This document shows positions 20,544-37,053 of a stretch of DNA of 64,000 bases, one piece after another (the first letter of the stretch is position 1; each line of letters starts with the position of its first letter). The notes beneath the pieces were generated by a model that was not told the origin of the DNA, searched no databases, and was given only the letters and a program-made list of their open reading frames with translations. Made by a program: the position numbers and the translations under genes. Where the stretch lies: IMG/VR virus record IMGVR_UViG_3300037484_000435, positions 160,001 through 224,000 of that record; one strand, 5' to 3'. The DNA is from a virus. Its lineage: Duplodnaviria > Caudoviricetes.

Positions 20544-20570
20544 TATATAACTAGTACACAAATTCATCTC
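20544..20570 (-). promoter_or_regulatory. Conserved promoter-like motif, copy 1
   Basis: Minus strand GAGATGAATTTGTGTACTAGT followed by TATATA (-10-like), just upstream of an RBS. Confidence 0.7.
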
Positions 20571-21304
20571 AACCAATGTAACCGACGTTTTTCGTACAAA
20601 TCCAAAGCGAATTTATACAAAGAGATATCCGCCTCGTTATTCTTAGTAAGTGCTTTGAGCGAGTCAGCAGACAAATCTGTAGGGCGTGGTACACCGGGGA
20701 CATACTCAGCCTGTTTAACCACAACTCCGTTCCAATTGAATCTTCTATACATCATAGCAAGTATCTCTGGGTATAATTCCGTAAAACCAAAGAGCGTAAC
20801 TATATTCTCTAGGTGGTCACACGCCTGTCTATAAGCAACATCTACGGACTCGGTACGGTCTATTCCGCTTATTTTGTGACATATGCCATTATGATGTTCA
20901 TAATTAGGGTCATTGATAAGGTCCTCCAGTTTCTGAATCTTCATATTTTCATGGTCTTCATAAGAAGACATGTTAGACCCGTAATGATAGAGGGATAAAA
21001 ATCTATGGAGGGGTTCACGAAGTATAGTAATCAAATTAGACTTCTCCTGAATACCCCAAATAAATTCAGCTCCCATAGTAAAATGGCCTGTAATTAATTT
21101 AAACTGTGATTGGTTTTCTACAACTTGTTCCTCGGTGTAGTATCCAAGATGAATAAGCCCTATCCCTTCGTTTCCGTATTGAGAAGCAGCGGCCCACCGA
21201 AAAGAACTCCCCGCGGTGCGAGGGATGTGTAAGAAAGTAATGTGTTTTTCTGGATCGACCGAATCCCATTTTAAGAATTTATCTTCTAAAGTAAGTTTCC
21301 CCAT
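20564..21304 (-). CDS. Sulfotransferase (Sulfotransfer_2-like)
   Basis: FLHIPRTAGSS 5'-PSB loop, ITGHF, TILREP..RFLSLYHY 3'-PB motif, N.ADI.LY.FA. Confidence 0.85.
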   Translation of the reverse strand: MGKLTLEDKFLKWDSVDPEKHITFLHIPRTAGSSFRWAAASQYGNEGIGLIHLGYYTEEQVVENQSQFKLITGHFTMGAEFIWGIQEKSNLITILREPLHRFLSLYHYGSNMSSYEDHENMKIQKLEDLINDPNYEHHNGICHKISGIDRTESVDVAYRQACDHLENIVTLFGFTELYPEILAMMYRRFNWNGVVVKQAEYVPGVPRPTDLSADSLKALTKNNEADISLYKFALDLYEKRRLHWLR

Positions 21305-21939
21305 TATGGTTTCCTTATTGCACACTGCATATAACAAGTATGGATAATCTTTACACCCTTTTCCTCTGCAAACCGAGTTATAGCGTCAGTAACACCCTGA
21401 AGGTGTCCGTAATCATCCAATATTATTACTCCTTTAGAAACTAGCCTCGGCCAAAAGAAATGTAGGGCATCTATAGTGGGTTGATATATATCCATGTCTA
21501 AGTACACAAAGCAAAACTGATCGTCACCCACTTCTGGGAGGGTATCTGGCACCATCCCTTTATGGATGATGATAGAAGGACAATCCTTAAGAAACCTTTT
21601 AACCTTTTCGTAAGGGGCCGACCATTCTCCCCCAGTATAAACACCGCCCGCCCAATTTATATTTAGATGAGGATGGTCGCTAATAACATAGTCTATTGTT
21701 GGGTCAGTTAACTCCACAGGTACCCCCTCAAAGGTATCAAAAACGTGTATTTTTCTACTATGACCTACAGCATTGGCAAGCAATTTTGCTGAGCCGCCCT
21801 TATAACTTCCCAACTCTGCAATTTCACCCTCTAAAGATTGTACAGTATCATTAACCCACGACCATAGATTCCACAAACGATCTGGTGTAACTAGTGTGTA
21901 ACCCTGTATTACTTTACACACGTCAAAAAAATTGCTCAT
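21304..21939 (-). CDS. TylF/MycF-family sugar O-methyltransferase
   Basis: AELGSYKGGS, VFDTFEG, HKGMVPDTL, FVYLDMDIY, GVIILDDY. Confidence 0.88.
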   Translation of the reverse strand: MSNFFDVCKVIQGYTLVTPDRLWNLWSWVNDTVQSLEGEIAELGSYKGGSAKLLANAVGHSRKIHVFDTFEGVPVELTDPTIDYVISDHPHLNINWAGGVYTGGEWSAPYEKVKRFLKDCPSIIIHKGMVPDTLPEVGDDQFCFVYLDMDIYQPTIDALHFFWPRLVSKGVIILDDYGHLQGVTDAITRFAEEKGVKIIHTCYMQCAIRKP

Positions 21940-22811
21940 TTTTTACCTCCACATTCTTCATAAGAAACATAACCAGTTCTCCCAAATTTATCACACCTAG
22001 AAAGAGCTGACATTGCTATGTCACACTTTCTTACCATCGATAAGGAAGCATCTTGGTAAACCCAATTTATAAATTTTAGTGCTTTGGCTCCCACAAAACG
22101 CATACCCCAAATATTTTTGTGCCTGCTCGGAGACTTAGTATGCGAACAATACTTATTGAACTCCGCTAAAATATATTCCAGTATAGCGTAAGAGCCAGAG
22201 ACTATACTAATCTCCAACATTTTCCAGTTACGCCTAAATCCATTTTTGTCAGTGTAATTACAGTTTGTAAATCCTATACTCCCATCCCCCTCTAGATAAC
22301 CTCTAATATAATGAGGTACCATGGTCTTTAAAATATTAGAAGGCGGTTTTAATATAAAAGTTTTATTGGGTATGATGCCGTGTCTACACAAATCCCCGCA
22401 AAACTCTTTACCGTAAATCACAAGTCGATAGTAGTAATAATTTTGTTTGTAAGTGCTATGAGTTTTGTAATACTTACCAACATGACCTTCACCCACAGCA
22501 TCTTTAATTTGAAATAAAATTTCACAATCTTTTTCACTCGCTACCAATTCAACCCTATACATACTCTTATCTATACTCGCATCCGCACCAAAAAACCCGA
22601 GCACATACGCTTTTTCCTCGGAATCTATCAGCGACATATCTATACTGTGCCTTATTCTATGCGGCCTACTGAGGCCTTTCTTTTGAGCCCGAATTTTTAT
22701 AGCATCATCAGTCCTGCCCCGCAATAGTTTCCTCAAATCCTCCCATTCAGCAGTTCTATAATGTTCTCCAAGTAGTATGTCTTCTGCTGAAGACCAACGA
22801 CAGTTCCCCAT
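21936..22811 (-). mobile_element. Free-standing LAGLIDADG endonuclease with N-terminal WxxxE repeat
   Basis: WSSAED N-terminus; IDSEEKAYVLGFFGADA; YIRGYLEGDG. Confidence 0.88.
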
Positions 22812-23737
22812 TATTTTTCCCCTTCTATTATATCTGGAAAACTATAGTCACCAGCAAACCACTTCTGCCGGTTTTCCTTATAGTTAGGATGAACACTATG
22901 TGTCTTGAGCCACTCAATATTCTCTCTTACATATGCAGGAGAATTTTTTTCAGTTAGTTCCACCCGCTCAAGTTTAAATCTGGTCGGGTCAATCTTCTCC
23001 CCCAATAGTGAACGAAACATGCTGTGGTTATAGTAGAGCCACTTATTGACATCATCCTTCAAAAAATTTGTGTGACCATACGTATTGAGTTTACGCCATA
23101 TATGTTTAGCACTGCTACAGGAATGATAATGGTAACCAGTCAACCCTCTAGGCATTAGATACCCCACAGCATGTTCTACTCTTGGTTGTTCTAGTCTAAT
23201 GTTACGTTGTTGTAAATAAGAAAGTTGGGTCCAAACCATACCGGGCCAATCACCGGGGCTACTAAACGTGTTGTCAAAATCATAAGCATAAAAAATAGGA
23301 TTAGGCCTTACAGGCTCCCCGTCATGTTCATACAAAGTTTCGCACATTATTGACCCCTTGTCAGGGTTAGCAAAATCTATAATCTCGTCTATATCAGAAA
23401 CTAGCAACCAAGTTTTAGGTGGATACTTGTTATATATATACTCCTTCTGAGCTTCTCTTTGGAGAAAAATAATCTCCCAATCCTCAACTTTAGGACGACA
23501 TTTACGCTCTATTTCTACTTCAATAATTTTTATCTTGGGCAAGAACCTTTCAAAACGTTTGTCGGTTTCTAGTATACCCTTTAAGACATGCGGAGTACCT
23601 TTGTAATCTCCCCTGAAAGAGTATGTGTTCTCAGTTATTACCCATTCATCCACCCAAGGGGATTCAACATGAAATTTTATTAACAACATATCTGTCTGGT
23701 AGGGTTCGAAGAAACAAAATGAGTCAACAATAATCAT
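22811..23737 (-). CDS. GT17 (MGAT3-like) glycosyltransferase family protein
   Basis: Start refined to MIIVDSFCFFE..MLLIKF.....VDEWVI.E...SF.G..K; QRE; LLVSDIDEI; GYHYH. Confidence 0.7.
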   Translation of the reverse strand: MIIVDSFCFFEPYQTDMLLIKFHVESPWVDEWVITENTYSFRGDYKGTPHVLKGILETDKRFERFLPKIKIIEVEIERKCRPKVEDWEIIFLQREAQKEYIYNKYPPKTWLLVSDIDEIIDFANPDKGSIMCETLYEHDGEPVRPNPIFYAYDFDNTFSSPGDWPGMVWTQLSYLQQRNIRLEQPRVEHAVGYLMPRGLTGYHYHSCSSAKHIWRKLNTYGHTNFLKDDVNKWLYYNHSMFRSLLGEKIDPTRFKLERVELTEKNSPAYVRENIEWLKTHSVHPNYKENRQKWFAGDYSFPDIIEGEK

Positions 23738-24327
23738 AGTCCGTTCCCCTTTCTTAAAGCGACAGCTCCGTCGCCGCATATCTCCTGTACAGTGTAATGG
23801 TAATCTTTTATGAATTCGTCTACCGCCTTCTTTATCGTTCCCGCTCTCGGATAATCATGTATTACGAGATACCCTCGCGGAGATAAATGGGAGTTACAAA
23901 ACAACAAATCACTCATGGTTCCCTCGTAACTGTGGTCTCCGTCTATGAAACAGAAGCCCACGTTCAAATTGGGTATCGTACCTCTTAAATAAGTAGTTGA
24001 CCCCAACAAGGGAATAACACGCCCCTTGAGTTTGAACTTACGGTAAGTATCCATAAAGTTGTCAAAGTTCTTACCTATTGTAGCGGCCCTGTAATCCTCT
24101 AGGGGGTACCACAAATCTATTGCTAAAACTGTAAAAAATTGGGCTAAAATGACCGTTGAACAGCCCTTATAGGACCCAATTTCTATAACAAGGCCATCCT
24201 CCCCAAACTCCTCTGAAGCTTTCTTCGCCCACTTCTCAACAAACTCGTGCTCTGTGAACGGTATATCTTTAGGCTCCTGCCCAGGGGACAAAGCCCTTGG
24301 AACTTGTCTCCAGTCATAAATTCTCAT
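23734..24327 (-). CDS. Class I SAM methyltransferase (Methyltransf_24-like)
   Basis: VIEIGSYKGCST, AIDLW, FIDGDHSYE, LVIHDY. Confidence 0.85.
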   Translation of the reverse strand: MRIYDWRQVPRALSPGQEPKDIPFTEHEFVEKWAKKASEEFGEDGLVIEIGSYKGCSTVILAQFFTVLAIDLWYPLEDYRAATIGKNFDNFMDTYRKFKLKGRVIPLLGSTTYLRGTIPNLNVGFCFIDGDHSYEGTMSDLLFCNSHLSPRGYLVIHDYPRAGTIKKAVDEFIKDYHYTVQEICGDGAVALRKGNGL

Positions 24328-24328
24328 G

Positions 24329-26788
24329 CTACTTCACCCCCTTGGTGTTCAAACTATCTATATCTTCTCGCAAATGCCTATTTACCGCCTCGGCAGACCA
24401 ATGTTCTTCCGAGTACTTCAGGGAATTTAGCGATAACTCCCTTTGTAAATTACAATCATTTAAAATACCTATTACATTCTTGGCGAATTGTTCCCGTGTA
24501 TCACCGATGAGAACGTTTTCCCCGTCTGTCAACCCTATTCCTTCGGCCCCTATTGTAGTAGTCACTACAGGTAACCCATGAGACATAGCCATGGCTATCT
24601 TCCCTTTAAACCCCGCCCCAAACCTGATAGGAGCTACCAGTAAAGAAGAGTAATGCAAGAATACGGTTAAGTCTTCAACATGTCCTTTAACACAGATATT
24701 CTTGTCGTCATGAAGAGCTATTATGTCCTCGGGGGCTTTATCGCCTATCACAGTCAGCACCGCGTCAGGAACCTCCTTCTTTACTAGAGGAAAAACTTCA
24801 GAAGTGAACCAACGAATTGCATCCTGATTTGGAGTATGTTGCATACCACCAATAAAAATTATCTGATTTCTAAATTTAGACTCGCGATTAGAATCGGGTG
24901 GTGGATTAGGAGGACAATACCAAGGCCATACAGATACTTTAGTATCTGGTAATTCCTCTAATAAAATACCTTTTTCATAATCACTTACCGTTACCAACAA
25001 ATCACTATCCCTAATAATAGTAAACTCAGTTTGTTTAGTCTTATCCGATTGTAATAAGAGAGCATAATCATCATTTACTTTCGCTGTTCTCTGTTCTCGA
25101 AGATAGTGGAGGTCATGACAATAATAAACGATAGGAGCCTTTGTAAAGTTTCTTACCTGTTTGATATAATTTATGGCTAAAGGTCTGGCCAAAATAACCA
25201 AATCAATTGTATGTCCTAGGTCGGCCAGTGTATACTCGAAAGGAAAATTGGCTATATTGCAAATCTCCCAATTATTCTGCCACAAAGTCTTTATGTATTT
25301 TACATTTTGTGCCCGCCAGTTAGGATCGTCCGACCAGTAACGTATCTTAAATCCAAGGTCTTGCAAACGGGAACAATAAGAGAACACAGCGTAATCTCCT
25401 GCGTTGGTATCGTATTCAGGAATATGCCAATCCACCCACAAAGCGGTAGGTTTAAGAATTTCGGCTAGCAGGGGGCAATCAAAATCATCTTGCTCCCCTA
25501 ATTGAATAACATATTTCCCTTCCATAGCGTTAGACTTAGACTTGAGAGTAGACAGGTCATAGGTTTTAGATATAAAATAATCATAGAAACGAGGACGTTC
25601 TGCAAGTATCTTCTCCAACATGCTTTCACTCTCATATAACATAACCTCAACGGTATCGGGGATCCAGTCGTGTACGGACATCCAGTCGTCTACACCTACG
25701 TGGAGAGGAAAAAGTGTGACAAAAAAATCTCTATTGACCAAATCCTTTATGTAATCCATAATAGCAGTATCAGCATAGTGAGGACGGGGTACAAAATCAT
25801 TTATAATCAAAACTCTACCACGATACCTCTTGTTGGTTCTAGCGTAAACTGGTGGATTTGACTTGTGATAACCAGTAGCAAGTATTTCTTGATGCCTTCC
25901 CTTCAGAATCTTAGTGTGTTCCTTTACTAGGGTGTCAACACTATTCGAATCGCTACTCCCATACTCATAATGTAACACCTTTGCATTAGGGTCATAGATA
26001 ATTTTATACCCAGATTCTCTGGCACGTAAACAGTAGTCGGATTCCTCGCAGTAACCAGGTGAATATACTTCGTCAAATTTATTTAATTCAAAAAATAATT
26101 CTCTAGGAGTCATAAAACAAGAACCCGAAACGTAATCTACTTCCCTAACAAAATTAACGTCCCCAATATCTGGGTTACGCCCTTTACTATATTCCGCGGC
26201 CTCCCCATCACTCCATAGTATTCCCCCCGCGTCCTGTACTGTATTATCTAAACGTCGTATTTGTGCTCCTACAACCCCAATATTCGTTTGCTTCCAATTT
26301 CGTATACGTTTAAGTAAACTTTGTATACAATTATAGGTCACTAACGCGTCATCATTCAACAGAAGAATATATTCGCCCGAAGTCTGTTCCGCTCCGATAT
26401 TAACACCAGCAACAAAGCCTTGGTTCCCCTCGTTATTAATAATTTTTACATTCTCTAATCTAGAAAGCAATTCCTTATTTTTATCAGAACTTCCATTATT
26501 AGATATAATAATTTCGTAGGAACAATCAGTAACCCAACGGCGTAAAGCCATAAAACATAATAGCTCTAAAGCTGTTTGAGTGTAAGTCACAATTATAATA
26601 CTAACTTCGGGTTTCTCAAAAAAAGGAAACACTATTTTTTTATTTGATTTTAAAAAAGCCTCTAACTGCTGCTCTGCCTTACCTAAAAATTGCTCCTTAA
26701 GCGTGGGTGGTGGAGGTGCTACTGGTGTAGGGGGTTTCTGAGTTATAACAAACTCCTTTACCTTATTTTTCTTTTTATTTTTTTTCAT
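24329..26788 (-). CDS. Multidomain GT2 + GT4 glycosyltransferase
   Basis: N-terminal VSIII..NNGSSD..N.GF..G.N.G..LLNDD, YCEESD; C-terminal IGGMQH.PN.D, APIRFGAGFKGKI..AM..GLPVVTT. Confidence 0.92.
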   Translation of the reverse strand: MKKNKKKNKVKEFVITQKPPTPVAPPPPTLKEQFLGKAEQQLEAFLKSNKKIVFPFFEKPEVSIIIVTYTQTALELLCFMALRRWVTDCSYEIIISNNGSSDKNKELLSRLENVKIINNEGNQGFVAGVNIGAEQTSGEYILLLNDDALVTYNCIQSLLKRIRNWKQTNIGVVGAQIRRLDNTVQDAGGILWSDGEAAEYSKGRNPDIGDVNFVREVDYVSGSCFMTPRELFFELNKFDEVYSPGYCEESDYCLRARESGYKIIYDPNAKVLHYEYGSSDSNSVDTLVKEHTKILKGRHQEILATGYHKSNPPVYARTNKRYRGRVLIINDFVPRPHYADTAIMDYIKDLVNRDFFVTLFPLHVGVDDWMSVHDWIPDTVEVMLYESESMLEKILAERPRFYDYFISKTYDLSTLKSKSNAMEGKYVIQLGEQDDFDCPLLAEILKPTALWVDWHIPEYDTNAGDYAVFSYCSRLQDLGFKIRYWSDDPNWRAQNVKYIKTLWQNNWEICNIANFPFEYTLADLGHTIDLVILARPLAINYIKQVRNFTKAPIVYYCHDLHYLREQRTAKVNDDYALLLQSDKTKQTEFTIIRDSDLLVTVSDYEKGILLEELPDTKVSVWPWYCPPNPPPDSNRESKFRNQIIFIGGMQHTPNQDAIRWFTSEVFPLVKKEVPDAVLTVIGDKAPEDIIALHDDKNICVKGHVEDLTVFLHYSSLLVAPIRFGAGFKGKIAMAMSHGLPVVTTTIGAEGIGLTDGENVLIGDTREQFAKNVIGILNDCNLQRELSLNSLKYSEEHWSAEAVNRHLREDIDSLNTKGVK

Positions 26789-26791
26789 ATC

Positions 26792-27031
26792 TTAACTGTC
26801 CATAGCCTGTAAAAATGCGTTGTAGTGGCGGGCACCAGCAACTGATTGGGCTAAATTTAACCTCTCCTCAACACTCATATTTGGCCACTCTACTTTTATG
26901 GCAGTCAATAAGTATTCTGAATCTACATCTATAGGTTTACCAATAAATAATTCCGATAAACGCAGTCGGAATTCCCTATTCCTGTTCAGTTGTTTTAATA
27001 CATAATCTTTGGCTACCTCTATCTCAGTCAT
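26792..27031 (-). CDS. Hypothetical protein
   Basis: ORF track; operon spacing. Confidence 0.5.
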   Translation of the reverse strand: MTEIEVAKDYVLKQLNRNREFRLRLSELFIGKPIDVDSEYLLTAIKVEWPNMSVEERLNLAQSVAGARHYNAFLQAMDS

Positions 27032-27362
27032 CTACTACCTCCAACTCAAGCATCTTGCCAGTTAAGTAAGCGTGATAGGCACGATTAAAAAACAATGGCA
27101 CGAATGGGGCATTCTGATACCAATTAAATATAAAAGAACGGCGTGCCTTCTCGTGACCATCTATACCTTCCTCAAACATATTTGTGTCAGAAAGAACATC
27201 ATAATCTATTGGTCCTAAATCTGGTATGTCCCACAATTTAGAAATCTCATGAAGATGGTAAGCAGTCTTTGTTAATTTCTCTAACACCTCTTTGGTTACT
27301 GGTGGTGGACTTTCCAAAGTAAACTCTACCCCGTCCTCACTCTTCAATTTTAGCGACATCAT
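27024..27362 (-). CDS. Hypothetical protein (paralog of 42687..42971)
   Basis: Shared pattern KL...L.EI...W and FI..WY..APF; start refined using AGGGGG RBS. Confidence 0.55.
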   Translation of the reverse strand: MMSLKLKSEDGVEFTLESPPPVTKEVLEKLTKTAYHLHEISKLWDIPDLGPIDYDVLSDTNMFEEGIDGHEKARRSFIFNWYQNAPFVPLFFNRAYHAYLTGKMLELEVVDD

Positions 27363-27567: not shown

Positions 27568-27576
27568 TATATTTTC

Positions 27577-27834
27577 CTATACAGAAACGGGAACCAGCTT
27601 AAAATCACAGCGGCCTGCACCGTCCCTAGGAACATATACTTGACATTCCCCGATGCCATTTTCGTCTGTTAGAATCCTAGATGGAGTAACCTCCAGCTTT
27701 CCCTGCGTCACCACTGGAATCACTTCCACATTAGGACACGCGGCCCCACAATCCTCGTCAACCACCATAAACTTGTAGTTAACTGCGGTAGTCACTGTTA
27801 TATGACCCAAATTTGTTCTACCAATCGCCTTCAT
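27577..27834 (-). CDS. Small stand-alone Ig-like (Big_1-like) beta-sandwich protein
   Basis: F.VVDED.G.A.PNV.V....G.L.V.P...TDENG.G; all-beta pattern. Confidence 0.5.
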   Translation of the reverse strand: MKAIGRTNLGHITVTTAVNYKFMVVDEDCGAACPNVEVIPVVTQGKLEVTPSRILTDENGIGECQVYVPRDGAGRCDFKLVPVSV

Positions 27835-27845
27835 TTTTTTTCTCC

Positions 27846-28043
27846 TTAATTCTGCACAATACAGTTCTCAATTTTAAAATGCTCAACAATCGACCCATCT
27901 TCTATAAAAATGTCATCGCCACACCTATAAGCCTGAGCTAAGTCAGAGTAGGTTACTGTTTTTCTAAATGGATAAGTAGCGACTACTAACATGTTCGTAG
28001 CGTCATAGTCCGCTAAAAGAGAATCAGTAATAATTTTAATCAT
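27846..28043 (-). CDS. Hypothetical protein
   Basis: ORF track; AAGGAG RBS. Confidence 0.5.
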   Translation of the reverse strand: MIKIITDSLLADYDATNMLVVATYPFRKTVTYSDLAQAYRCGDDIFIEDGSIVEHFKIENCIVQN

Positions 28044-28045
28044 TT

Positions 28046-28237
28046 TTAAACCTCATAATTTAATTTAAGCCAAGTATCCACATCCATATCCTCGGAAGAT
28101 ATATCTGCGGGTAAATTTTCTATGCAATCACGACGAATAAATATTTTACCGTCTTTAGTTGCATAAGCAGGAAATATCAAAACAATATCCCCGTAGTCCT
28201 TTTCAATAGTATAGAAACCGTCGTTTACTTCTTTCAT
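28046..28237 (-). CDS. Hypothetical protein
   Basis: ORF track; AAGGAAAG RBS. Confidence 0.5.
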   Translation of the reverse strand: MKEVNDGFYTIEKDYGDIVLIFPAYATKDGKIFIRRDCIENLPADISSEDMDVDTWLKLNYEV

Positions 28238-28246
28238 ACTCTTTCC

Positions 28247-29218
28247 TTACAAAAAAGACAAGGCTTTTTGGTATTTACGGTCCATATATATCGTGGCCCC
28301 TCCGTACATCCAACTCAAAAAACGATGCCCCCTTTTTCCGCGATATTGTAGTTGGTAAGATTTTTTGCCAATAGGACAAATATTTACGATTTCTTTCTGT
28401 CTTGTTAATTCATTATATTTTTTGTGAATCCAATCAAGAACCCCGAAAGTGCCACAAAAAGATACCAGACAGTAAAAATTTCCCGTTCCCTTCTTTTTTC
28501 CTTTGGAGGACTGGTAAGCCCCAATACTTCCATCTCCATCGAAATAGCCCCTTACCCAATGAGATACAAATCGATCAGACAACCCCTTTGGTGGTTTAAG
28601 TATAAGAGATTTGTTCGGGACGATTCCCCAACCCTCTAAAGCGTTACAGAGATCTAGGCCGTAAACCCTAAGACTACAAGATGTTAATCCAGTCTTTTTC
28701 CCCCCGCAACTATCTTTATGTCCCAATATCTTGGAATCTGGACATAGAACATTTTTAATTTTAACAAGATGACTATTATCTTTAGTCGATAGAGTTATTC
28801 CTAGATACTTACTTTTATCTGATCTATACACAACGAAACCATCCGCAGCGATAAACCCTAAAAGATATGCTTTAATCACTGTATCAATTTTAGCAAAATC
28901 CAATACACTACGTGGATGAACGTCTCGTTGCAAGCCTAATCTATTTGCTTTTAAAACTATTGCCTGATAACTACGATTAGGGAAATATTTAGTAATCTCT
29001 CCTACCAACATATTATTAAACCACATCTCCTGAAGTAATTCTTCCTCAGATTTTGTCCACCTAAGTTGAGGTGCCCGTATTAGTTTTCTGTCTGTTAACC
29101 AGCCCCAGATCGTATACGGATGAATCCCAACTTCTTCTGCTATTTCTGTGTACTCTCTACCATTAATATACATTTCACAAACTGAGTTCTTTACAACATC
29201 AGAATAAATAATACCCAT
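28247..29218 (-). mobile_element. Free-standing LAGLIDADG endonuclease with N-terminal HTH and WTxxE repeat
   Basis: Start refined to ATG 29218 (GGAGGTGG RBS); IDTVIKAYLLGFIAADG; WVRGYFDGDG. Confidence 0.9.
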
Positions 29219-29264
29219 TGATACCACCTCCATAGTGCCTTAGATATCAATGCAACCAAGTCAG
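29216..29264 (-). promoter_or_regulatory. Start-codon-sequestering hairpin plus upstream CTGACTT motif
   Basis: Minus strand CATTGATATC-loop-GGTATCAATG gives a 10-bp stem covering the ATG, with most of the RBS in the loop. Confidence 0.65.
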
Positions 29265-30278
29265 TTATTTTTTATGAACCCTTTCTCTATACCACTCTAC
29301 CGTCTTACCCACTGCTTCCCTTACAGGGGTCGGCTCCCATTCTACACCTGCTTTCTTCAATACGCCCAAAAGCTTTGTGTTGTCCAAAACTTTATGCATT
29401 TGGCCTGTAGGTTTATTAGTATCAAAATGTATCTTCCCACTAAAACCAGTCACATCCTTTATTGCTACTGCTAATTCTTCTATGGTAGTGCCAATCCCAG
29501 TAGAAATATTAAGGGGACCAATTTCCTCAAAATTATTGATAATGTCAATAAACAATTTTCCAAAATCACCAGCATAAATAAAATCTCTGGTAACGTTAGG
29601 ATTTCCCCACACAGTTACACTGTCATACCCCTCATCACAAGCCTCAATAAAACGTTGTATAAGAGCCATTGCAACGTGGGATTCTTGTTCGAGACAATTA
29701 TCCCATTTACCGATAAGATTAGTAGGCAAGAGTATTGTTGTTTTAATTCCAAATTGTTTCTTGTATACGTCCGCCGCGATAAGCAAAGTTTTCTTAGCAA
29801 AACTGTACCCCAAAGAAGTTTCCACTGGTAACCCGTCCCACATCTCTCCTTCTTTATAAGGCGTAATCTTGTCAGGTTTTAGTGCATAGGAACAACCACC
29901 CATCAACATAATAAGTTTTTCAACAACCCTGTTGGGAGCGGCACAAGTTTCTAACATGTTCATTCCCATCATGAGATTTTGCCAAAAATAAGTGGCTTGT
30001 CGTTCCATGTTGTCCTTAATCCCACCTGATTTACCAGCCAAATGTATAACTGTACGAATGGGACCATGATTAGCCTCAATAGAATTAAACATTGTAGTAA
30101 CATGATTGAGCCGAGTCAAATCAAAAAATTTTGAGCCGTTTATAGTTACTATATCCGCAAATTTCCAACGATTTTCTATTTCGCCTATTAAGTTCTTCGC
30201 AATGAACCCAGTGTCTCCTGTTATGAGGACACGACCTGAGAAGGGAATACCCCTCTTTCTGTTAGTTCCTACCATCAA
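29265..30278 (-). CDS. fcl: GDP-L-fucose synthase (Fcl/WcaG)-like epimerase-reductase
   Basis: TGDTGFI, DLT, HLAGKSGGI..N, GCSY, E..GY..AK, PTNL.G..D....SHV, VWG....TRDF.Y..D, LNISTG, FDT.KP.G. Confidence 0.88.
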   Translation of the reverse strand: MMVGTNRKRGIPFSGRVLITGDTGFIAKNLIGEIENRWKFADIVTINGSKFFDLTRLNHVTTMFNSIEANHGPIRTVIHLAGKSGGIKDNMERQATYFWQNLMMGMNMLETCAAPNRVVEKLIMLMGGCSYALKPDKITPYKEGEMWDGLPVETSLGYSFAKKTLLIAADVYKKQFGIKTTILLPTNLIGKWDNCLEQESHVAMALIQRFIEACDEGYDSVTVWGNPNVTRDFIYAGDFGKLFIDIINNFEEIGPLNISTGIGTTIEELAVAIKDVTGFSGKIHFDTNKPTGQMHKVLDNTKLLGVLKKAGVEWEPTPVREAVGKTVEWYRERVHKK

Positions 30279-30292
30279 ATTCCTCCCTTGTC

Positions 30293-30559
30293 CTAGTCCA
30301 ATAAATCCTTGGGGTGTTTCTGTTTACTGTCCCCATAAATCTGTTTAAACGCTTCCTTGAACGATTTGACATCGCCATCAATCAACCACAATCCCTGAGC
30401 ACAAAATTTTGAAATATGTTTCTCAACAGGCTCAGGATTAAGGTTACAAATTACCATTTCGGGGTGGCCACCCTCCTCTGAATTCAAGCAGTTGGCACAT
30501 GTAATTTTCTTGTTCTCCACTATCGTTATACTCGCATTCTGTTCGAGCGTTTTCCTCAT
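30293..30559 (-). CDS. Small Cys-rich hypothetical protein
   Basis: Start refined to MRKTLEQ (AAGGAG RBS); CANC...CNLNP...C. Confidence 0.55.
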   Translation of the reverse strand: MRKTLEQNASITIVENKKITCANCLNSEEGGHPEMVICNLNPEPVEKHISKFCAQGLWLIDGDVKSFKEAFKQIYGDSKQKHPKDLLD

Positions 30560-30779
30560 ACGTAGTCTCCTTATTACTATTGTATAGGTCCCAATTATAG
30601 GAGGGGACCCCCGCATCTTCCCAACTGGCCTCTTCACAACTATTACAGGCATCAATTGGGATAACAGCGAGCTTCTCACCTTTACGACATTGGATATTGT
30701 CCATGTCTAACAAGTCTATCATCCCTCTATAAGAAACATAAAGACGCTCGCAGTGATCGCAAATAAATGCTCTACTCAT
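30444..30779 (-). CDS. Hypothetical zinc-binding protein
   Basis: CDHC, CNSC; tail overlaps the next gene. Confidence 0.5.
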   Translation of the reverse strand: MSRAFICDHCERLYVSYRGMIDLLDMDNIQCRKGEKLAVIPIDACNSCEEASWEDAGVPSYNWDLYNSNKETTYEENARTECEYNDSGEQENYMCQLLEFRGGWPPRNGNL

Positions 30780-30808
30780 CTATCTAAACCTCCATCAATT
30801 ATTATCTA

Positions 30809-31039
30809 TTAACTATCTGAATAAGTTTTTCTTACTAACTCCTTGCCCAATTCTTCCCGCCATTCCTCTGTATCCATAAAAGCGTCGACCTGTTTCTCCG
30901 TCATAGAGACGGGAGAAATACAGAGACAATGCTCATCCCGACCTAAATAATTGATTTCATATTTGTCTGAATTAGACAATATCAACATGATAGGCTCGAT
31001 TCTAGAATCATAAAATTTGTTCCCGACCTTTACTCTCAC
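30809..31039 (-). CDS. Hypothetical protein
   Basis: GTG start with GGAGG RBS, downstream of promoter motif copy 2. Confidence 0.6.
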   Translation of the reverse strand: MRVKVGNKFYDSRIEPIMLILSNSDKYEINYLGRDEHCLCISPVSMTEKQVDAFMDTEEWREELGKELVRKTYSDS

Positions 31040-31070
31040 CGTTTACCTCCAAGAAAAAGTAAGTCCCTAT

Positions 31071-31098
31071 AGTATAACTAGTACACAAATCCAACTCT
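31071..31098 (-). promoter_or_regulatory. Conserved promoter-like motif, copy 2
   Basis: Minus strand AGAGTTGGATTTGTGTACTAGT followed by TATACT; intergenic. Confidence 0.7.
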
Positions 31099-31102
31099 CA
31101 GT

Positions 31103-31372
31103 TTAGGTAGAAACAGATATTTTGCTAAATCCCACTTCTCCATCGCTTTCGAAATACATGTATGCTTCCCCGTGCGGATTCGTGATATCCACTGGGATTT
31201 TTACCGAAGGGTGCGGATGCTTCAATTGCCCACCTCCCTCTTCAACAAGAAAGCAGACTTGTTGGCCCGCAACAGGCCTTCCTAAGCTATCTGTAACTTT
31301 AGCGGTAAGTAAACTTCTCTGCCCCTGCTTAGCGGGCATAACACAATCAGATGTTATTAATGATATATTCAT
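31103..31372 (-). CDS. Small stand-alone Ig-like (Big_1) domain protein
   Basis: LTAKVTDSLGRPVAGQQV.F.V..GGG.L......T...G.A, typical of invasin/intimin-type Big_1. Confidence 0.7.
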   Translation of the reverse strand: MNISLITSDCVMPAKQGQRSLLTAKVTDSLGRPVAGQQVCFLVEEGGGQLKHPHPSVKIPVDITNPHGEAYMYFESDGEVGFSKISVST

Positions 31373-31397
31373 TTCGTCCTCCTGTTAACTCCAATTA

Positions 31398-32390
31398 TCA
31401 TAATAAACCATCCCTTTTCAAATCATGGGTTTTCGAAGAAATTTGTGTTTTGGAACGACCAAGACCAATCGACATTTCTGACAAAGTTCTCAGTCCAATA
31501 TTTTGCTTCAAGTAATCTACCTCCTCGTTGGTCCAGTATCTCGATTTTATTGACTTAATATAATCATCTAAATCTACTACAAGAAATTTTTCAGCTAGAG
31601 CATACTTTCTATCCATATAAATAGTTGCGAAGTTATACAACCAATTCAAAAATATAACCGCAGTATGTCCCCCATAATGTATAGTTGACAATCTTTTTTT
31701 ATTTAATGTAACATTACAATTATGTGGATAAATTTTTCTAAATTCCTCATTTATGAATTTAATAATAGGATTAGAACCGTTTGCTAAAGTATACCCACCA
31801 ATGAAACAATCTGGGAAATTTTGTGACTTGCCGAATGTAATACAACCATCTCCATCAAAATACCCCCTAATCCAAGAAGCAACTAAGTGTTTAGGAACAG
31901 TTTTAGGTATCTTTGGGTTATAAGTTTTTCTGACAACAATTCCGTGGTATTGTAATTGCGTGGCCAAAAGTGGATCAGCAATACTAAACTCAAACATATC
32001 ATCACGAGGAACATAACGAATCTTAGATTCTGGACTAATTAGATCGCGAAGGGTTTTCAAATGATTCAGGTCCTTCTTTGATAGTTTAATTAGCAACGAA
32101 GGGGTCCGATCACCCACCATTTTACACAAGGCCCCATCAGCAGAAATAAAACCCACAATGTAAGATTTCACTTCAGTATCAATTTCTGTTAAATCTATTA
32201 CTTGCTTTCGTTCAACACCATTCTTAAAAACATTGTTTCTCTTAAGTCCCAAGGAAGTGGCCTTAGTCCAAATATTCTTCCAAGGTCTTCCTGGAAACTC
32301 GTTCATTACCTCGTGCTGAGATTTGTGCTCATAAATAGCAACTAACTTCTCTACTTGGTCTGGGGACCAACCCCAAATTCTCTTTCTCAA
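31398..32390 (-). mobile_element. Free-standing LAGLIDADG endonuclease with N- and C-terminal W-repeat modules
   Basis: WSPDQ; IDTEVKSYIVGFISADG; WIRGYFDGDG; WTNEE. Confidence 0.9.
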
Positions 32391-32396
32391 CTACAA

Positions 32397-32440
32397 ATCC
32401 TCCTATCTGGGTCTTTTATTAAGATAAGAAAGATAGTTAA
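32397..32440 (-). promoter_or_regulatory. RBS-sequestering hairpin plus upstream TTAACTA motif
   Basis: Minus strand ATC(T)TTCTTATCT-loop-AGATAGGAGGAT, about 12 bp including G:U pairs. Confidence 0.65.
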
Positions 32441-32447
32441 ATAATAA

Positions 32448-33464
32448 TTACTTCCAATTATCATAAAAAACATTGGAAGAATCATATGTTATTGTTTCGT
32501 AAAACTTTAATAATTGTTTTATCGTGCGTGCCATATCCCACACAGGGTTAAAACCAATGGATTCTATACGCTCATTACTAACTAAATAGTCGCGACGATC
32601 TTCATCTTTCATTAGTGGGGCTTCCAAAATATGAAGTTCAGTGTACTTTGCTATCTCGTCCGCCAATTCGGCCTTGGTAAGATTTGCTTCTGACAACCCG
32701 ACATTATAAGGCTTACCAGACATCTTATCATACTTCTCAATAGCCAACATGAAAGCCTGACAAACGTCTTCCACATGAATGTAGTTGCGTCTAAAACCTT
32801 TTTCAAATAGAGTAATCTCTCTATTCTTCGCCGCGTTCCAAACAAAGTTATTCACTAACAAGTCTAGCCTCATGCACGGAGAGTACCCCATAACTGTGGC
32901 CAGTCGTAAACTCACGCCGCCTACCTCTAACACAATCTTTTCGGCTTCAACTTTAGACATACCATAGACTGAGATTGGGTTGAGTGGGTCATCTTCTGTA
33001 ACTGGGGTTCCATCCGAACGAGAACCATACCCTGAATTAGTAGACGCGATAATTAGCTTGTGCTTAGGGCCGAGCTCGTCGATCATGGCATTAACCGCAC
33101 CGTAATTTAGGGACCATGCCAGAGCAGGGTCTTTCTTACATGCAGGCATACCCACAATCCCCGCAAGGGGTAATATTACGTCTATGTCGTGTTCTTCAAG
33201 AATCTGCGACACCAAATCAATATTCGTAACTGTCCCATTTACAAATACAAACCTATCATCACTACAGAATTTGCCTAGGGTATTCTGTTTACGAGATAAG
33301 TTGTCCAATACCACTACCTTTTTTACTACAGGTAAATTCATACGTATCTCACCAGGGACATCTTCTGTCACATTTTTTACTTCAACCCATTTGTTCCAAC
33401 CCAATAATTTTTCGACCAACACAGAGCCAATATACCCAGCTCCTCCCGAAATCATAATGTTCAT
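32448..33464 (-). CDS. NAD-dependent SDR closely resembling C. jejuni Cj1427 (GDP-D-glycero-alpha-D-manno-heptose C4 dehydrogenase)
   Basis: GGAGYIGS, PLA.IVG.P.C, TNSGYG, YG.SK, RLATV.G.SP.MRLDLLVN, FRRNYIHV, YDKM.G..YN.GLS.ANLTK, D.RDYLVSN. The match is to Cj1427 as recalled, not searched. Confidence 0.8.
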   Translation of the reverse strand: MNIMISGGAGYIGSVLVEKLLGWNKWVEVKNVTEDVPGEIRMNLPVVKKVVVLDNLSRKQNTLGKFCSDDRFVFVNGTVTNIDLVSQILEEHDIDVILPLAGIVGMPACKKDPALAWSLNYGAVNAMIDELGPKHKLIIASTNSGYGSRSDGTPVTEDDPLNPISVYGMSKVEAEKIVLEVGGVSLRLATVMGYSPCMRLDLLVNNFVWNAAKNREITLFEKGFRRNYIHVEDVCQAFMLAIEKYDKMSGKPYNVGLSEANLTKAELADEIAKYTELHILEAPLMKDEDRRDYLVSNERIESIGFNPVWDMARTIKQLLKFYETITYDSSNVFYDNWK

Positions 33465-33479
33465 AAAATAAAAACCTCC

Positions 33480-34052
33480 TTAACAACTGACACACATTTC
33501 AAAGTCAGCATAACAATTATATTCTTTACACTTTGGACAAGTGGATATTAACCAACCTGTCCTTTTATCTTTAAGAGAAGCCCCGCAAAATCTACAATAG
33601 GCTACACCACCAAAGTCAGGCTCTGCTTTCATCCAGCCCCGCTCAATGAGGTCTCCCTCATCGACTCCTTCAGGTAAATGTTCTATACGAGACATATCCA
33701 AATAGACATACTTATGGCCTCGATTTTTACCCGCAAATCTCCCAGCGTAAACGGGGGAAGTTAAATACTTATCTGAATCCGGGTTTCGTTTAACGACATC
33801 GGACCCGTAATCCCTCGGGGGAATAAAGGTCTCAGTAAAATACCAATCATCAGCGTCCAAATCAGTAAAGGATAAAGTAAAATTATAGTCCGCAACCACA
33901 TCAAACGGATAATAATCTTGGGGTTTTACTGGTTCTATTCTATCGGTCCTTTGTGATACCCTTAACTTTATTCCCCCTAAAGCATTGTTCTCCCTACTAA
34001 TAAAACCATCACCCTTCTCCCTTCTCCCGCAATACCGTAATAGCCTCTTCAT
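33480..34052 (-). CDS. Hypothetical protein with C-terminal zinc ribbon
   Basis: CRFCG...CPKC near the C-terminus. Confidence 0.55.
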   Translation of the reverse strand: MKRLLRYCGRREKGDGFISRENNALGGIKLRVSQRTDRIEPVKPQDYYPFDVVADYNFTLSFTDLDADDWYFTETFIPPRDYGSDVVKRNPDSDKYLTSPVYAGRFAGKNRGHKYVYLDMSRIEHLPEGVDEGDLIERGWMKAEPDFGGVAYCRFCGASLKDKRTGWLISTCPKCKEYNCYADFEMCVSC

Positions 34053-34059
34053 ATTTCAT

Positions 34060-34593
34060 TTATAATCTCCTTAAATGTTTCTTTATCATATTCACTAATA
34101 TTATATAAGCCTCCTCCTCTGAATGAAAACCAGTATCTATTGTCAAATCTGGTAAACGATTCAATCCTAAGTTATCCTCACTAGGCCCCTCAAATGGGCT
34201 TCCGATACCAGTGAAGTTAGGAATTTCTCCTTTCAATGCCTTCTGATATAATCCCTTTGGGTCCCTACTAATTAACGTGTCCAGAGCACACCGTAAATAA
34301 ACTTCGAAATATTTATGAAGCAACCCAGCGTTTGCGTTCCGCATCGCTTGTAAAGGGGTAATAGAAGCTACAACCATGTTATTACCACGGTCTTGTAAAC
34401 CCTTAACGTGGTGCCTTAAAGCTTCTTGGTAATGGGACCGCCCTGCTACGGAGAAATCAGCAGGAGTACTTAATTGCTTTCTCACTGAGTCAGAATCCAA
34501 GAATAGATAATCCAGTTCTTCGGCCAACCTAAACCCCAGTGTGGTCTTTCCAGAACCTGACAAGCCCCAAATCCATATAACATTTCCTAACAT
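34060..34593 (-). CDS. cysC: Adenylyl-sulfate (APS) kinase
   Basis: IWIWGLSGSGKTT, LDSD.VR, VASITP, RDPKGLY.KA..GEI.NFTGI.SPFE.P. Confidence 0.93.
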   Translation of the reverse strand: MLGNVIWIWGLSGSGKTTLGFRLAEELDYLFLDSDSVRKQLSTPADFSVAGRSHYQEALRHHVKGLQDRGNNMVVASITPLQAMRNANAGLLHKYFEVYLRCALDTLISRDPKGLYQKALKGEIPNFTGIGSPFEGPSEDNLGLNRLPDLTIDTGFHSEEEAYIILVNMIKKHLRRL

Positions 34594-34595
34594 TA

Positions 34596-37052: not shown

Positions 37053-37053
37053 A

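What the first reader, a model, noticed from the sequence alone, without database searches (positions are those of the whole stretch)
20564..34593. Split sulfation module: APS kinase and sulfotransferase
Seen: cysC (34060) and a sulfotransferase (20564) next to a TylF methyltransferase; no ATP sulfurylase in the window. Established: CysC makes PAPS, the sulfotransferase donor. Inference: the phage diverts host APS to PAPS to sulfate its glycan, so cysC here is not a sulfur-assimilation auxiliary gene. This would suit a host rich in APS, such as a sulfate reducer (speculative).
Basis: partly seen in the sequence, partly recalled or inferred. Interest (0 to 1): 0.6.

Follow-up and report, generated by a model that had tools for sequence, protein, structure and literature searches.

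The report
Phage APS kinase feeding viral sulfotransferases
A 545-kb sediment phage carries an APS kinase and three sulfotransferases but no other sulfur-assimilation gene, so its 'cysC' most likely makes the sulfate donor PAPS to sulfate a phage-built sugar chain and not to help the host make cysteine; a survey here suggests the same for most cysC-carrying phages.

Summary
Window 34060-34593(-) encodes an APS kinase with all its motifs intact. Window 20564-21304(-) encodes a PAPS-type sulfotransferase (ST1) whose start overlaps the stop of a TylF O-methyltransferase. Both lie in one co-directional glycan island interrupted by homing endonucleases.

The whole 545-kb genome (CheckV 100%) has no ATP sulfurylase, PAPS reductase/CysD or CysQ. 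It does have two more sulfotransferases outside the window.

In the two nearest fetchable relatives, CysC directly abuts sulfotransferases. Of 50 CysC-bearing viral records, 29 also carry a sulfotransferase, 19 of them within 3 kb. Only 4 carry a PAPS_reduct gene and none an ATP sulfurylase. Of 48 epimerase-matched control records, 2 carry a sulfotransferase (p = 3e-9).

The published papers I read treat viral cysC as an assimilatory-sulfate-reduction gene and never mention sulfotransferases. This scan had already reached the same general conclusion on other DNA (e1-5366551, e1-5709087, e1-1935162, e1-1938665), and I reproduced it independently.

Three points stay unproven: the acceptor (virion glycan or host envelope), enzyme activity, and the host. 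The sulfate-reducer idea has no support.

The parts
34060..34593 (-). APS kinase (CysC), 177 aa, the predicted PAPS producer
   Evidence: PF01583 E 2.8e-29. Best PDB match 2yvu, E 5e-23. P-loop, D-x-D-x-x-R, FS..R, I-x-P, RDPK..Y and FTG residues are invariant against cellular enzymes. ATG at 34593 with a Shine-Dalgarno sequence. Below the NCBIfam equivalog cut-off, 107 against 138.7 bits.
20564..21304 (-). Sulfotransferase ST1, 246 aa, Sulfotransfer_2-like, predicted sugar O-sulfotransferase
   Evidence: PF03567 23.6 bits, cut-off 22. Invariant HxP(R/K)TxGxS, GH and RxPxxRxxSxY. AlphaFold2 pLDDT 90.2. Foldseek top matches are heparan sulfate 6-OST 5t05 (E 8.8e-8) and 2-OST 4ndz/3f5f. phrog_3347 E 2e-4.
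21304..21939 (-). TylF-type sugar O-methyltransferase, probably translationally coupled to ST1
   Evidence: PF05711 E 2.3e-22. Its stop TAA overlaps the ST1 ATG as TAATG.
33480..34052 (-). Conserved CysC-linked ORF of unknown function, 190 aa, with a C-terminal four-Cys zinc ribbon
   Evidence: Lies directly downstream of CysC. Homologues at 59-64% identity sit on contigs whose lengths equal those of CysC-clade contigs: 647399, 10890 and 11243 bp. No Pfam, PHROG or NCBIfam family. Not a nucleotidyltransferase by motif. The fold model failed, pLDDT 34.
34596..35950 (-). LAGLIDADG (34596-35432) and HNH (35429-35950) homing endonucleases inserted just upstream of CysC
   Evidence: PF14528 E 6.1e-14 and PF01844 E 7e-6.
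21936..22811 (-). LAGLIDADG homing endonuclease between the TylF-ST1 pair and the glycosyltransferases
   Evidence: PF14528 and PF00961.
22811..26788 (-). GT17-like glycosyltransferase (22811-23779), Methyltransf_24 (23734-24327) and a GT2-GT4 fusion glycosyltransferase (24329-26788)
   Evidence: PF04724 (weak), PF13578 E 3.5e-13, PF00535 E 4.4e-19 and PF13692 E 4.1e-23.
28247..33464 (-). LAGLIDADG (28247-29233), Fcl-like NDP-sugar epimerase/reductase (29265-30278), LAGLIDADG (31398-32390) and NDP-sugar epimerase/dehydratase (32448-33464)
   Evidence: Pfam. NCBIfam GDP-L-fucose synthase E 6e-49, below cut-off.
35950..38260 (-). Methyltransf_24 (35950-36756) and a second TylF-like methyltransferase (37631-38260) upstream of CysC
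13106..16483 (-). GDP-heptose precursor genes of the same island: SIS/GmhA-like (13106-13864), GHMP kinase (14728-15720) and NTP transferase (15755-16483)

Best explanation
The phage encodes a donor-supply-plus-transfer system for sulfation. Its APS kinase phosphorylates APS made by the host's own ATP sulfurylase, giving PAPS. Three phage sulfotransferases then use PAPS. ST1 is co-translated with a TylF O-methyltransferase at the end of a co-directional array of about 16 kb (methyltransferases, CysC, epimerases, glycosyltransferases, TylF, ST1), and it most likely O-sulfates a sugar of the methylated, probably heptose-containing, glycan that the island builds. The module looks split because homing endonucleases and further glycan genes lie between parts that are contiguous in relatives. 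Shown here: gene content, motifs, the ST1 fold, absence of the assimilatory partners, and linkage in relatives and across viral records. Inferred: enzyme activities, host APS as the substrate, and a glycan as the acceptor.
For: (1) CysC keeps every APS-kinase signature residue and matches solved APS kinases at E 5e-23. (2) ST1 has the PSB Arg, the PB Ser, a conserved His and a carbohydrate-sulfotransferase-like fold. ST2 matches phrog_3347 over its full length. ST3 matches PF00685 above cut-off and has the motifs. (3) The complete 545-kb genome has no ATP sulfurylase, PAPS_reduct, CysQ or Cj1418-type domain. (4) The window CysC forms a 100/99-supported clade with those of L109 and L007/L110. 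In L109 the order is ST-CysC-ST-MT-TylF-?-epimerase. In L007 it is epimerase-GNAT-MT-CysC-ST-ST-?-MT-epimerase. (5) ST1-clade and CysC-clade proteins share three contigs, judged by exact contig length: 47912, 171429 and 114178 bp. (6) Of 50 CysC-bearing viral records, 29 have a sulfotransferase above cut-off, 4 have PAPS_reduct and 0 have ATP sulfurylase. The nearest ST is within 3 kb in 19 and on the same strand in 27 of the 29. Among records at least 90% complete the count is 6 of 8. Controls: 2 of 48; odds ratio 32, p = 3e-9; p = 4e-7 with near-duplicates collapsed. (7) The linkage recurs across the viral CysC tree with three different ST families. (8) The TylF stop overlaps the ST1 start.
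Against: There is no biochemistry. The ST1 and ST2 Pfam scores are marginal (23.6 and 23.8 against 22), and CysC is below the NCBIfam equivalog cut-offs. The acceptor is unknown. There is no initiating phosphoglycosyltransferase (PF02397, PF00953) and no Wzx/Wzy-size membrane protein, so the fate of the glycan is open. ST2 and ST3 are not in glycan contexts. There is no phage PAP phosphatase. A host with PAPS reductase could also use the extra PAPS for assimilation. Close relatives could not be fetched, so their co-occurrence rests on matching contig lengths. IMG/VR records may include mis-called cellular DNA and near-duplicates, and the control is only roughly matched (median 45 kb against 73 kb).
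Confidence: 0.75

Rival explanations
1. Classical auxiliary metabolic gene: phage CysC boosts the host's assimilatory sulfate reduction (APS to PAPS to sulfite to cysteine) during infection, and the sulfotransferases are unrelated passengers.
For: This is the published reading of viral cysC (PMC10914622; bioRxiv 10.1101/2021.01.05.425418). A minority of viral CysC records do sit with PAPS_reduct-family genes (4 of 50), including a CysD plus CysN-CysC arrangement in G024. PAPS made by the phage could feed a host CysH.
Against: This complete genome has no cysH, cysD, cysN or sat. It has three PAPS-type sulfotransferases. CysC lies inside a glycan island and abuts sulfotransferases in its nearest relatives. 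The window CysC is in a different, long-branch clade from the PAPS_reduct-linked ones. Sulfotransferases are about 14 times as frequent in CysC-bearing records as in controls (58% against 4%).
Confidence: 0.12
2. MeOPN-like chemistry: the CysC-like kinase is a Cj1415-type cytidine diphosphoramidate kinase that makes a PAPS-like 3'-phospho-CDP-phosphoramidate, and the sulfotransferase-fold proteins transfer phosphoramidate onto heptose, as in Campylobacter jejuni capsules.
For: The island makes GDP-heptose precursors and is rich in methyltransferases, like the C. jejuni capsule cluster, where MeOPN decorates a methylated heptose (PMC11800397). Scan note e1-4733091 reports a sulfotransferase-fold protein inside such an operon. 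A donor with a 3'-phosphonucleotide would fit the same PSB and PB motifs.
Against: That pathway needs Cj1415-Cj1418 together, and the complete genome has no PPDK_N domain of the Cj1418 glutamine-kinase type. The kinase keeps the APS-kinase residues shared with bona fide enzymes. Other phages in this scan pair CysC and sulfotransferases with complete cysDN sulfate activation (e1-5709087, e1-1935162; not checked here).
Confidence: 0.05
3. PAPS supply is real, but the main acceptors are not glycans: one or more of the sulfotransferases sulfate protein tyrosines (RaxST-like), lipids or small molecules.
For: ST2 lies four genes upstream of the 14,711-aa tape-measure gene among unknowns and homing endonucleases, not among glycan genes. 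ST3 is Sulfotransfer_1-like, the family of small-molecule sulfotransferases, and sits among unannotated ORFs. No glycan export genes were found.
Against: ST1 is coupled to a sugar O-methyltransferase in a glycosyltransferase array. Its best structural matches are carbohydrate O-sulfotransferases. In L109 and L007 the sulfotransferases sit between methyltransferases and NDP-sugar epimerases.
Confidence: 0.2

Closest known systems
Rhizobial NodPQ-NodH and Xanthomonas RaxPQ-RaxST: dedicated PAPS supply plus a sulfotransferase (PMC4216712; PMC11625862)
   Same: A dedicated APS kinase is paired with a PAPS-dependent sulfotransferase to decorate a specific product, separate from cysteine synthesis. 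NodH acts on a sugar.
   Different: Those systems carry their own ATP sulfurylase (NodP/NodQ, RaxP). This phage has the kinase only and must draw on host APS. Its parts are scattered over the genome (12.8 kb, about 143 kb and about 228 kb from CysC). It is viral, with three sulfotransferases from two Pfam families.
Viral 'cysC' auxiliary metabolic genes as described in COBRA (PMC10914622) and the organosulfur AMG survey (10.1101/2021.01.05.425418)
   Same: The same gene family. COBRA also notes that cysC-encoding phages have larger genomes, which fits this 545-kb phage.
   Different: Both papers assign viral cysC to assimilatory sulfate reduction, and neither mentions sulfotransferases. Here the partners are sulfotransferases, not cysH or cysDN.
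Heparan sulfate 6-O- and 2-O-sulfotransferases (PDB 5t05, 5t03, 4ndz, 3f5f)
   Same: The ST1 model shares their fold (Foldseek E 8.8e-8, TMq 0.64) and the PSB and PB motifs plus a His base.
   Different: Only 17% identity. ST1 is a small (246 aa), soluble, cytoplasmic protein, and its PSB has Arg where these enzymes have Lys. Its acceptor is unknown.
phrog_3347, 'Galactose-3-O-sulfotransferase' (PHROGs v4, moron/AMG category)
   Same: ST2 matches over its full length (E 1.3e-8) and ST1 matches over its N-terminal half (E 2e-4). Phage sulfotransferases are therefore already catalogued.
   Different: [quoted passage not shown] No link to viral cysC is made.
Campylobacter jejuni MeOPN pathway kinase Cj1415 (PMC11800397)
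   Same: A CysC-like kinase in a heptose and methyltransferase capsule cluster that makes a 3'-phosphorylated nucleotide donor.
   Different: It needs Cj1416-Cj1418, and no Cj1418-type domain is in this genome. The donor there is a phosphoramidate, not sulfate.

Membership tests
APS kinase (CysC, PF01583) | Score above Pfam's gathering cut-off over the whole domain | tested here: met
   102.6 bits against 21.1, model positions 2-150 of 152.
APS kinase (CysC, PF01583) | P-loop GxxGxGK(S/T)T, the D-x-D-x-x-R motif, the Phe and Arg of FS..R, I(S/T)P, RDPKGLY and FTG | tested here: met
   G13 G15 K16 T18 D33 D35 R38 F47 R52 I78 P80 R110-K113 Y116 G129 are invariant across the phage clade and four cellular enzymes. 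Differences: LDSD for LDGD, ITP for ISP, YQEALR for ENIRR.
APS kinase (CysC, PF01583) | NCBIfam equivalog-level score (TIGR00455) | tested here: not met
   107.3 bits against a cut-off of 138.7. It is a divergent clade, dropping from 45-75% identity inside the clade to 44% or less against cellular enzymes.
APS kinase (CysC, PF01583) | Catalyses APS + ATP to PAPS + ADP | not testable with these tools
   Needs an enzyme assay.
PAPS-dependent sulfotransferase (PF03567 / PF00685) | PSB loop with a conserved Lys or Arg (definition in PMC11625862) | tested here: met
   ST1 HIPRTAGSS (Arg, as in Stf0 and NodH), ST2 HMPKTAGNS, ST3 VPKCGTY.
PAPS-dependent sulfotransferase (PF03567 / PF00685) | PB helix with a conserved Ser (RxxxxS) | tested here: met
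   ST1 REPLHRFLS, ST2 REPIDRVIS, ST3 TRDLRLAAIS. R96, P98 and S104 are invariant in 18 sequences.
PAPS-dependent sulfotransferase (PF03567 / PF00685) | Catalytic base, His or Glu | tested here: inconclusive
   An invariant His (GH; H74 of the 246-aa form) is present. Its position in the active site was not checked by superposition.
PAPS-dependent sulfotransferase (PF03567 / PF00685) | Sulfotransferase alpha/beta fold | tested here: met
   ST1 model pLDDT 90.2, pTM 0.89. All listed Foldseek PDB matches are sulfotransferases, best E 8.8e-8. ST2 and ST3 were not folded.
PAPS-dependent sulfotransferase (PF03567 / PF00685) | Pfam gathering cut-off | tested here: met
   ST1 23.6 and ST2 23.8 against 22, both marginal and covering the N-terminal part only. 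ST3 29.8 against 22.
Self-sufficient PAPS-synthesis plus sulfotransferase cassette (NodPQ-NodH / RaxPQ-RaxST type) | Own ATP sulfurylase (Sat or CysD/CysN) | tested here: not met
   No PF01747 or PF01507 match above cut-off in the complete genome. The weak hits are a cytidylyltransferase-like protein and an NAD synthase. The ORF downstream of CysC is not a nucleotidyltransferase by motif.
Self-sufficient PAPS-synthesis plus sulfotransferase cassette (NodPQ-NodH / RaxPQ-RaxST type) | APS kinase and sulfotransferase in one genetic unit | tested here: inconclusive
   Same strand and same island, but 12.8 kb apart with about 15 genes between them. They are contiguous in relatives L109 and L007.
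Assimilatory sulfate reduction AMG set | Presence of cysH, cysD/N or sat with cysC | tested here: not met
   Absent from the genome. Present in only 4 of 50 CysC-bearing viral records.
MeOPN (phosphoramidate) donor pathway, Cj1415-Cj1418 | Cj1418-type glutamine kinase (PPDK_N / PEP-utilising family) | tested here: not met
   No PF01326 match in the genome.
MeOPN (phosphoramidate) donor pathway, Cj1415-Cj1418 | Homologues of Cj1416 and Cj1417 | not tested

The most novel reading that the evidence does not exclude
The megaphage coats its own virion, or part of it such as the very long tail, with an O-methylated and O-sulfated heptose-containing glycan made entirely in the cytoplasm. It uses host APS, which its own kinase converts to PAPS. 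This would be a polyanionic, glycosaminoglycan-like surface of a kind I found described for no phage. ST2 beside the tail module, soluble enzymes only, and the absence of any lipid-carrier, flippase or polymerase gene are all compatible with this reading. More broadly, most viral 'cysC' genes would then be sulfation genes and not sulfur-assimilation AMGs.
Probability: 0.25. Interest if true: 0.8.

Novelty: new variant of a known kind. Interest (0 to 1): 0.6.

Why it matters
Viral cysC is counted in environmental virome studies as evidence that phages drive assimilatory sulfate reduction. If most viral cysC genes instead feed virus-encoded sulfotransferases, as the 29/50 against 4/50 split and the tight physical linkage suggest, those biogeochemical inferences need revising. 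It would also give an answer to the stated open question of what phage sulfotransferases do (PMC10580990). The kinase-only design in this complete genome further predicts a host that makes APS but little or no PAPS, which is a testable clue to the host. Sulfated, methylated glycans made by phages would be a new class of phage surface or host-envelope modification, relevant to adsorption, superinfection exclusion and recognition by other organisms.

Tried and rejected
1. Hidden sulfurylase. The best genome hits to ATP-sulfurylase and PAPS_reduct are a cytidylyltransferase-like protein and an NAD synthase.

2. The 190-aa ORF downstream of CysC as a mini sulfurylase. It had a BLAST hit (E 2e-4) to a CysC-adjacent HxGH nucleotidyltransferase from another phage. 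However, the 'GH' is not conserved in its own homologues, and the central strand and ISAT motif are missing. The fold model failed, pLDDT 34. Rejected.

3. APS-kinase hits in several ST-bearing viral records. These are half-domain matches in 252-264-aa proteins of a different subfamily. I did not count them as CysC.

5. Deposited phages. There is no ST1 or ST2 homologue by tblastn. The 462-kb phage LR756500 has a CysC-like gene and only a weak ST-like ORF of 197 aa.

6. Host inference. Cellular ST relatives are at most 29% identical over their full length and spread over many phyla. Cellular CysC relatives are equally mixed. The scan's notes hold no host prediction.

7. Selecting on the sulfotransferase instead of on CysC. 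An APS kinase within 8-10 kb is then rare in both viral/metagenome loci and bacterial loci. The informative direction is from CysC to ST.

8. MeOPN rival. See the rival explanations.

Full report
CONTEXT. The window is bases 160001-224000 of a single 545,322-bp IMG/VR virus record that CheckV rates 100% complete. Earlier notes of this scan describe it as a sediment megaphage with a 14,711-aa tape-measure gene; I confirmed that ORF at genome 288395-332530. In the window nearly all long ORFs are on the minus strand, and GC content is about 0.40 throughout.

THE OBSERVATION.
- CysC. The ORF at 34060-34650(-) matches PF01583 APS_kinase at E 2.8e-29 over model positions 2-150 of 152. The true start is the ATG at 34593. 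It is preceded by GGTGGAG and lies 2 nt after the stop of an upstream LAGLIDADG gene. This gives the 177-aa form that is on record.
- ST1. The ORF at 20564-21337(-) matches PF03567 Sulfotransfer_2 at only 23.6 bits against a cut-off of 22. Its homologues start at the internal ATG at 21304, giving 246 aa.
- TylF. The ORF at 21304-21939(-) matches PF05711 at E 2.3e-22. Its stop overlaps the ST1 start as TAATG, so the methyltransferase and the sulfotransferase are probably translationally coupled.

IS ST1 A REAL SULFOTRANSFERASE? The weak Pfam score needed support, and four lines of evidence gave it.
- ST1 belongs to a small clade of ten metagenomic proteins, several on contigs of 48-171 kb.
- The alignment of that clade with a second genomic paralogue shows the sulfotransferase signature as invariant columns: HxPxTxGxS (the 5'-PSB loop, with Arg in ST1 and Lys in ST2), GH, and RxPxxRxxSxY (the 3'-PB helix). 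These columns survive in an 18-sequence alignment that includes viral homologues at 20-27% identity.
- They are the features that the review PMC11625862 uses to define the enzyme class.
- An AlphaFold2 model from that alignment is confident (pLDDT 90.2, pTM 0.89). Every listed Foldseek match in the PDB is a PAPS-dependent sulfotransferase. The best are heparan sulfate 6-O-sulfotransferase (5t05, E 8.8e-8, TMq 0.64) and 2-O-sulfotransferase (4ndz, 3f5f).

IS THE KINASE A REAL APS KINASE? It matches solved APS kinases (2yvu at E 5e-23, and about 20 others). Aligned with four cellular enzymes, it keeps the P-loop, the D-x-D-x-x-R motif, the Phe and Arg of the FS..R segment, I-x-P, RDPK..Y and the FTG glycine. 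It is divergent all the same: 107 bits against the TIGR00455 cut-off of 138.7. It sits in a discrete clade of about 29 metagenomic proteins at 45-75% identity, several on contigs of 114-647 kb. After that clade, scores drop to 104 bits or less for cellular enzymes.

- No ATP sulfurylase (PF01747) and no PAPS_reduct (CysH/CysD, PF01507) reaches the cut-off. The two sub-threshold hits are a cytidylyltransferase-like protein and an NAD synthase that lie about 3 kb apart.
- There is no CysQ-type phosphatase.
- Two more sulfotransferases turned up. ST2 is at genome 336888-337889(-): PF03567 23.8 bits, and phrog_3347 'Galactose-3-O-sulfotransferase' at E 1.3e-8 over its full length. It lies four genes upstream of the tape-measure gene, among homing endonucleases and unknowns. 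ST3 is at genome 422917-423699(+): PF00685 29.8 bits, with motifs VPKCGTY, VGH and TRDLRLAAIS.
- The genome therefore has one predicted PAPS producer, three predicted PAPS consumers, and neither a sulfate-activating nor a PAPS-reducing enzyme.

THE ISLAND. On the minus strand the order runs as follows:
- Methyltransf_24 (36756-35950), HNH, LAGLIDADG;
- CysC, then a conserved 190-aa ORF, then an NDP-sugar epimerase;
- LAGLIDADG, small ORFs, an Fcl-like epimerase/reductase, LAGLIDADG, small ORFs;
- a GT2-GT4 fusion, Methyltransf_24, a GT17-like protein, LAGLIDADG;
- TylF, then ST1.
Further out lie another TylF-like gene, more methyltransferases and GT4/GT47-like genes upstream, and GDP-heptose precursor genes (SIS, GHMP kinase, NTP transferase), GT2s and a cytidylyltransferase-like gene downstream. 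The genome has no Bac_transf or WecA-type initiating transferase and no multi-pass membrane protein of Wzx/Wzy size. The island enzymes look soluble. The acceptor, whether a virion protein glycan or a host lipid-linked intermediate, is thus not determined.

RELATIVES.
- Cluster look-ups show ST1-clade and CysC-clade proteins on contigs of exactly the same length three times: 47,912, 171,429 and 114,178 bp. The 190-aa ORF pairs with CysC in the same way on contigs of 647,399, 10,890 and 11,243 bp.
- The two nearest relatives that could be fetched are decisive. In L007 (66 kb) the order is epimerase, GNAT, methyltransferase, CysC (45% identical), ST, ST, unknown ORF, methyltransferase, epimerase, epimerase. 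In L109 (211 kb, CysC 64% identical) it is LAGLIDADG, Sulfotransfer_1 ST, CysC, Sulfotransfer_2 ST, methyltransferase, TylF, unknown ORF, epimerase.
- These three CysCs form a clade with 100/99 support on a long branch.
- The 'split' in our genome is therefore a dispersed version of a compact cassette, loosened by homing endonucleases and additional glycan genes.

A GENERAL TEST. I took the 50 best CysC-bearing IMG/VR records and scanned each whole record.
- Above Pfam cut-offs, 15 carry Sulfotransfer_2, 13 Sulfotransfer_3 and 14 Sulfotransfer_1. The union is 29 of 50.
- Only 4 carry a PAPS_reduct-family gene, and none an ATP sulfurylase.
- Among the eight records that are at least 90% complete, six carry a sulfotransferase and none carries PAPS_reduct.
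- The nearest sulfotransferase is within 400 bp of CysC in 7 records and within 3 kb in 19. It is on the same strand in 27 of the 29.
- In a control set of 48 viral records chosen through the neighbouring NDP-sugar epimerase family, 2 carry a sulfotransferase and 2 an APS kinase.
- Fisher's test gives an odds ratio of 32 and p = 3e-9. With near-duplicates among the ST-positive records collapsed it is 21/42 against 2/48, p = 4e-7. Among records of 100 kb or less it is 16/34 against 2/40.
- On a CysC tree the linkage is scattered over many clades and involves different sulfotransferase families. Several of the 'none' rows are short fragments that sit inside ST-positive clades, one of them with a CysC identical to an ST-positive row. 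Two of the PAPS_reduct-linked CysCs (G024, G068) form their own clade.
- Caveats: IMG/VR calls may include cellular DNA, the records are not fully dereplicated, and the control set is smaller in median size (45 kb against 73 kb).

LITERATURE. [quoted passage not shown] It notes that cysC phages have larger genomes and never mentions sulfotransferases. The organosulfur AMG survey does the same. [quoted passage not shown] My searches for a paper that links the two found none. This scan's own notes already hold the same general conclusion on other DNA: e1-5366551, on the 211-kb phage that is my L109, and e1-5709087, e1-1935162 and e1-1938665, on phages with full cysDN-cysC operons plus sulfotransferases. 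I saw those notes only after my own survey, which agrees with them.

RIVALS.
- The assimilatory-AMG reading is not excluded, because a host CysH could use phage-made PAPS. It does not explain the three sulfotransferases, the island context or the linkage statistics.
- A MeOPN-type reading (a Cj1415-like kinase making a phosphoramidate donor for heptose) was prompted by note e1-4733091 and by the heptose and methyltransferase content of the island. That pathway needs Cj1415-Cj1418 (PMC11800397), and no PPDK_N domain of the Cj1418 type is in the genome. Cj1416 and Cj1417 could not be searched for.
- Non-glycan acceptors remain possible for ST2 and ST3.
- The sulfate-reducer host idea has no support. 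Cellular relatives of ST1 and of CysC are distant and taxonomically mixed.

VERDICT. This is a kinase-only, dispersed variant of a dedicated PAPS-supply-plus-sulfotransferase system. It sits inside a phage glycan island and depends on host APS. It also exemplifies a pattern in which viral cysC mostly travels with sulfotransferases. I found that pattern in no paper I could search, though this scan's own notes had already recorded it on other DNA.

Noticed in passing
L154:3524-3940, L146:2449-2847, L112:3483-4133; fused forms L038:1501-2259, L039:1501-2262, L041:1489-2283: In other phages a small ORF (132-216 aa) follows CysC directly. The two shortest carry an HxGH nucleotidyltransferase motif (GRWxPxHxGH ... 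YGRGVGY ... ISAT). The same domain is fused behind an APS-kinase-like half-domain in 252-264-aa proteins. Pfam puts the three free-standing ORFs just under the ATP-sulfurylase cut-off (23.4, 17.6 and 20.8 bits against 24.3) or in CTP_transf_like. They may be a minimal sulfate adenylyltransferase (a mini PAPS synthase) or an NMNAT/NadR-like enzyme..
   Followed up: partly
window 33480-34059 (-): The conserved 190-aa ORF downstream of CysC has the homologue-like N-terminus MKYEEA... starting at 34059 in another frame, which stops after 16 codons. The listed ORF starts at 34052. This is an early frameshift or indel, or a later start, in this genome's copy.
   Followed up: partly
genome 336888-337889 (-), outside the window (L004:898-1896): The second sulfotransferase (ST2, 333 aa) lies four genes upstream of the 14,711-aa tape-measure gene. 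It has a C-terminal extension of about 65 aa, rich in charged residues, that ST1 lacks. A possible link between sulfation and the tail module.
   Followed up: partly
genome 422917-423699 (+), outside the window (L045:1465-2247): The third sulfotransferase (ST3, Sulfotransfer_1 type, GTG start) sits among unannotated ORFs, far from any glycan gene.
   Followed up: partly
window 7917-8870, 9909-10958, 16476-17543, 21936-22811, 28247-29233, 31398-32390, 34596-35432, 35429-35950, 42968-43906, 46759-47745: At least nine LAGLIDADG genes and one HNH homing-endonuclease gene are spread through the glycan island. Several sit exactly between functionally linked genes, and L109 also has a LAGLIDADG next to its ST-CysC-ST cassette.
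   Followed up: no
window 17525-18403 (-): An ORF with a weak match to the terminase large-subunit N-terminal ATPase domain (PF03237, E 4.4e-4, below cut-off) lies inside the sugar-gene region, followed by a LAGLIDADG gene.
   Followed up: no
window 43969-44769 (-) and 11852-12337 (-): An ADP-ribosylglycohydrolase (PF03747, E 3.3e-36) and a DUF5662 protein (E 7.5e-31) are embedded in the island.
   Followed up: no
L274:7375-8016 and L314:6689-7996: In a Paenibacillus and a Cohnella genome an APS kinase ends exactly where an ST1-like sulfotransferase begins, so compact cysC-ST cassettes also exist in some Bacillota. In Cohnella the kinase ORF is 436 aa and may be a fusion.
   Followed up: no
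L104 / LR756500.1 at about 112833-113315 and 134353-134598: A published 462-kb uncultured phage has a CysC-like gene (29.6% identity) and, about 21 kb away, a 197-aa ORF with weak matches to the sulfotransferase profile (E 1.3e-4).
   Followed up: partly
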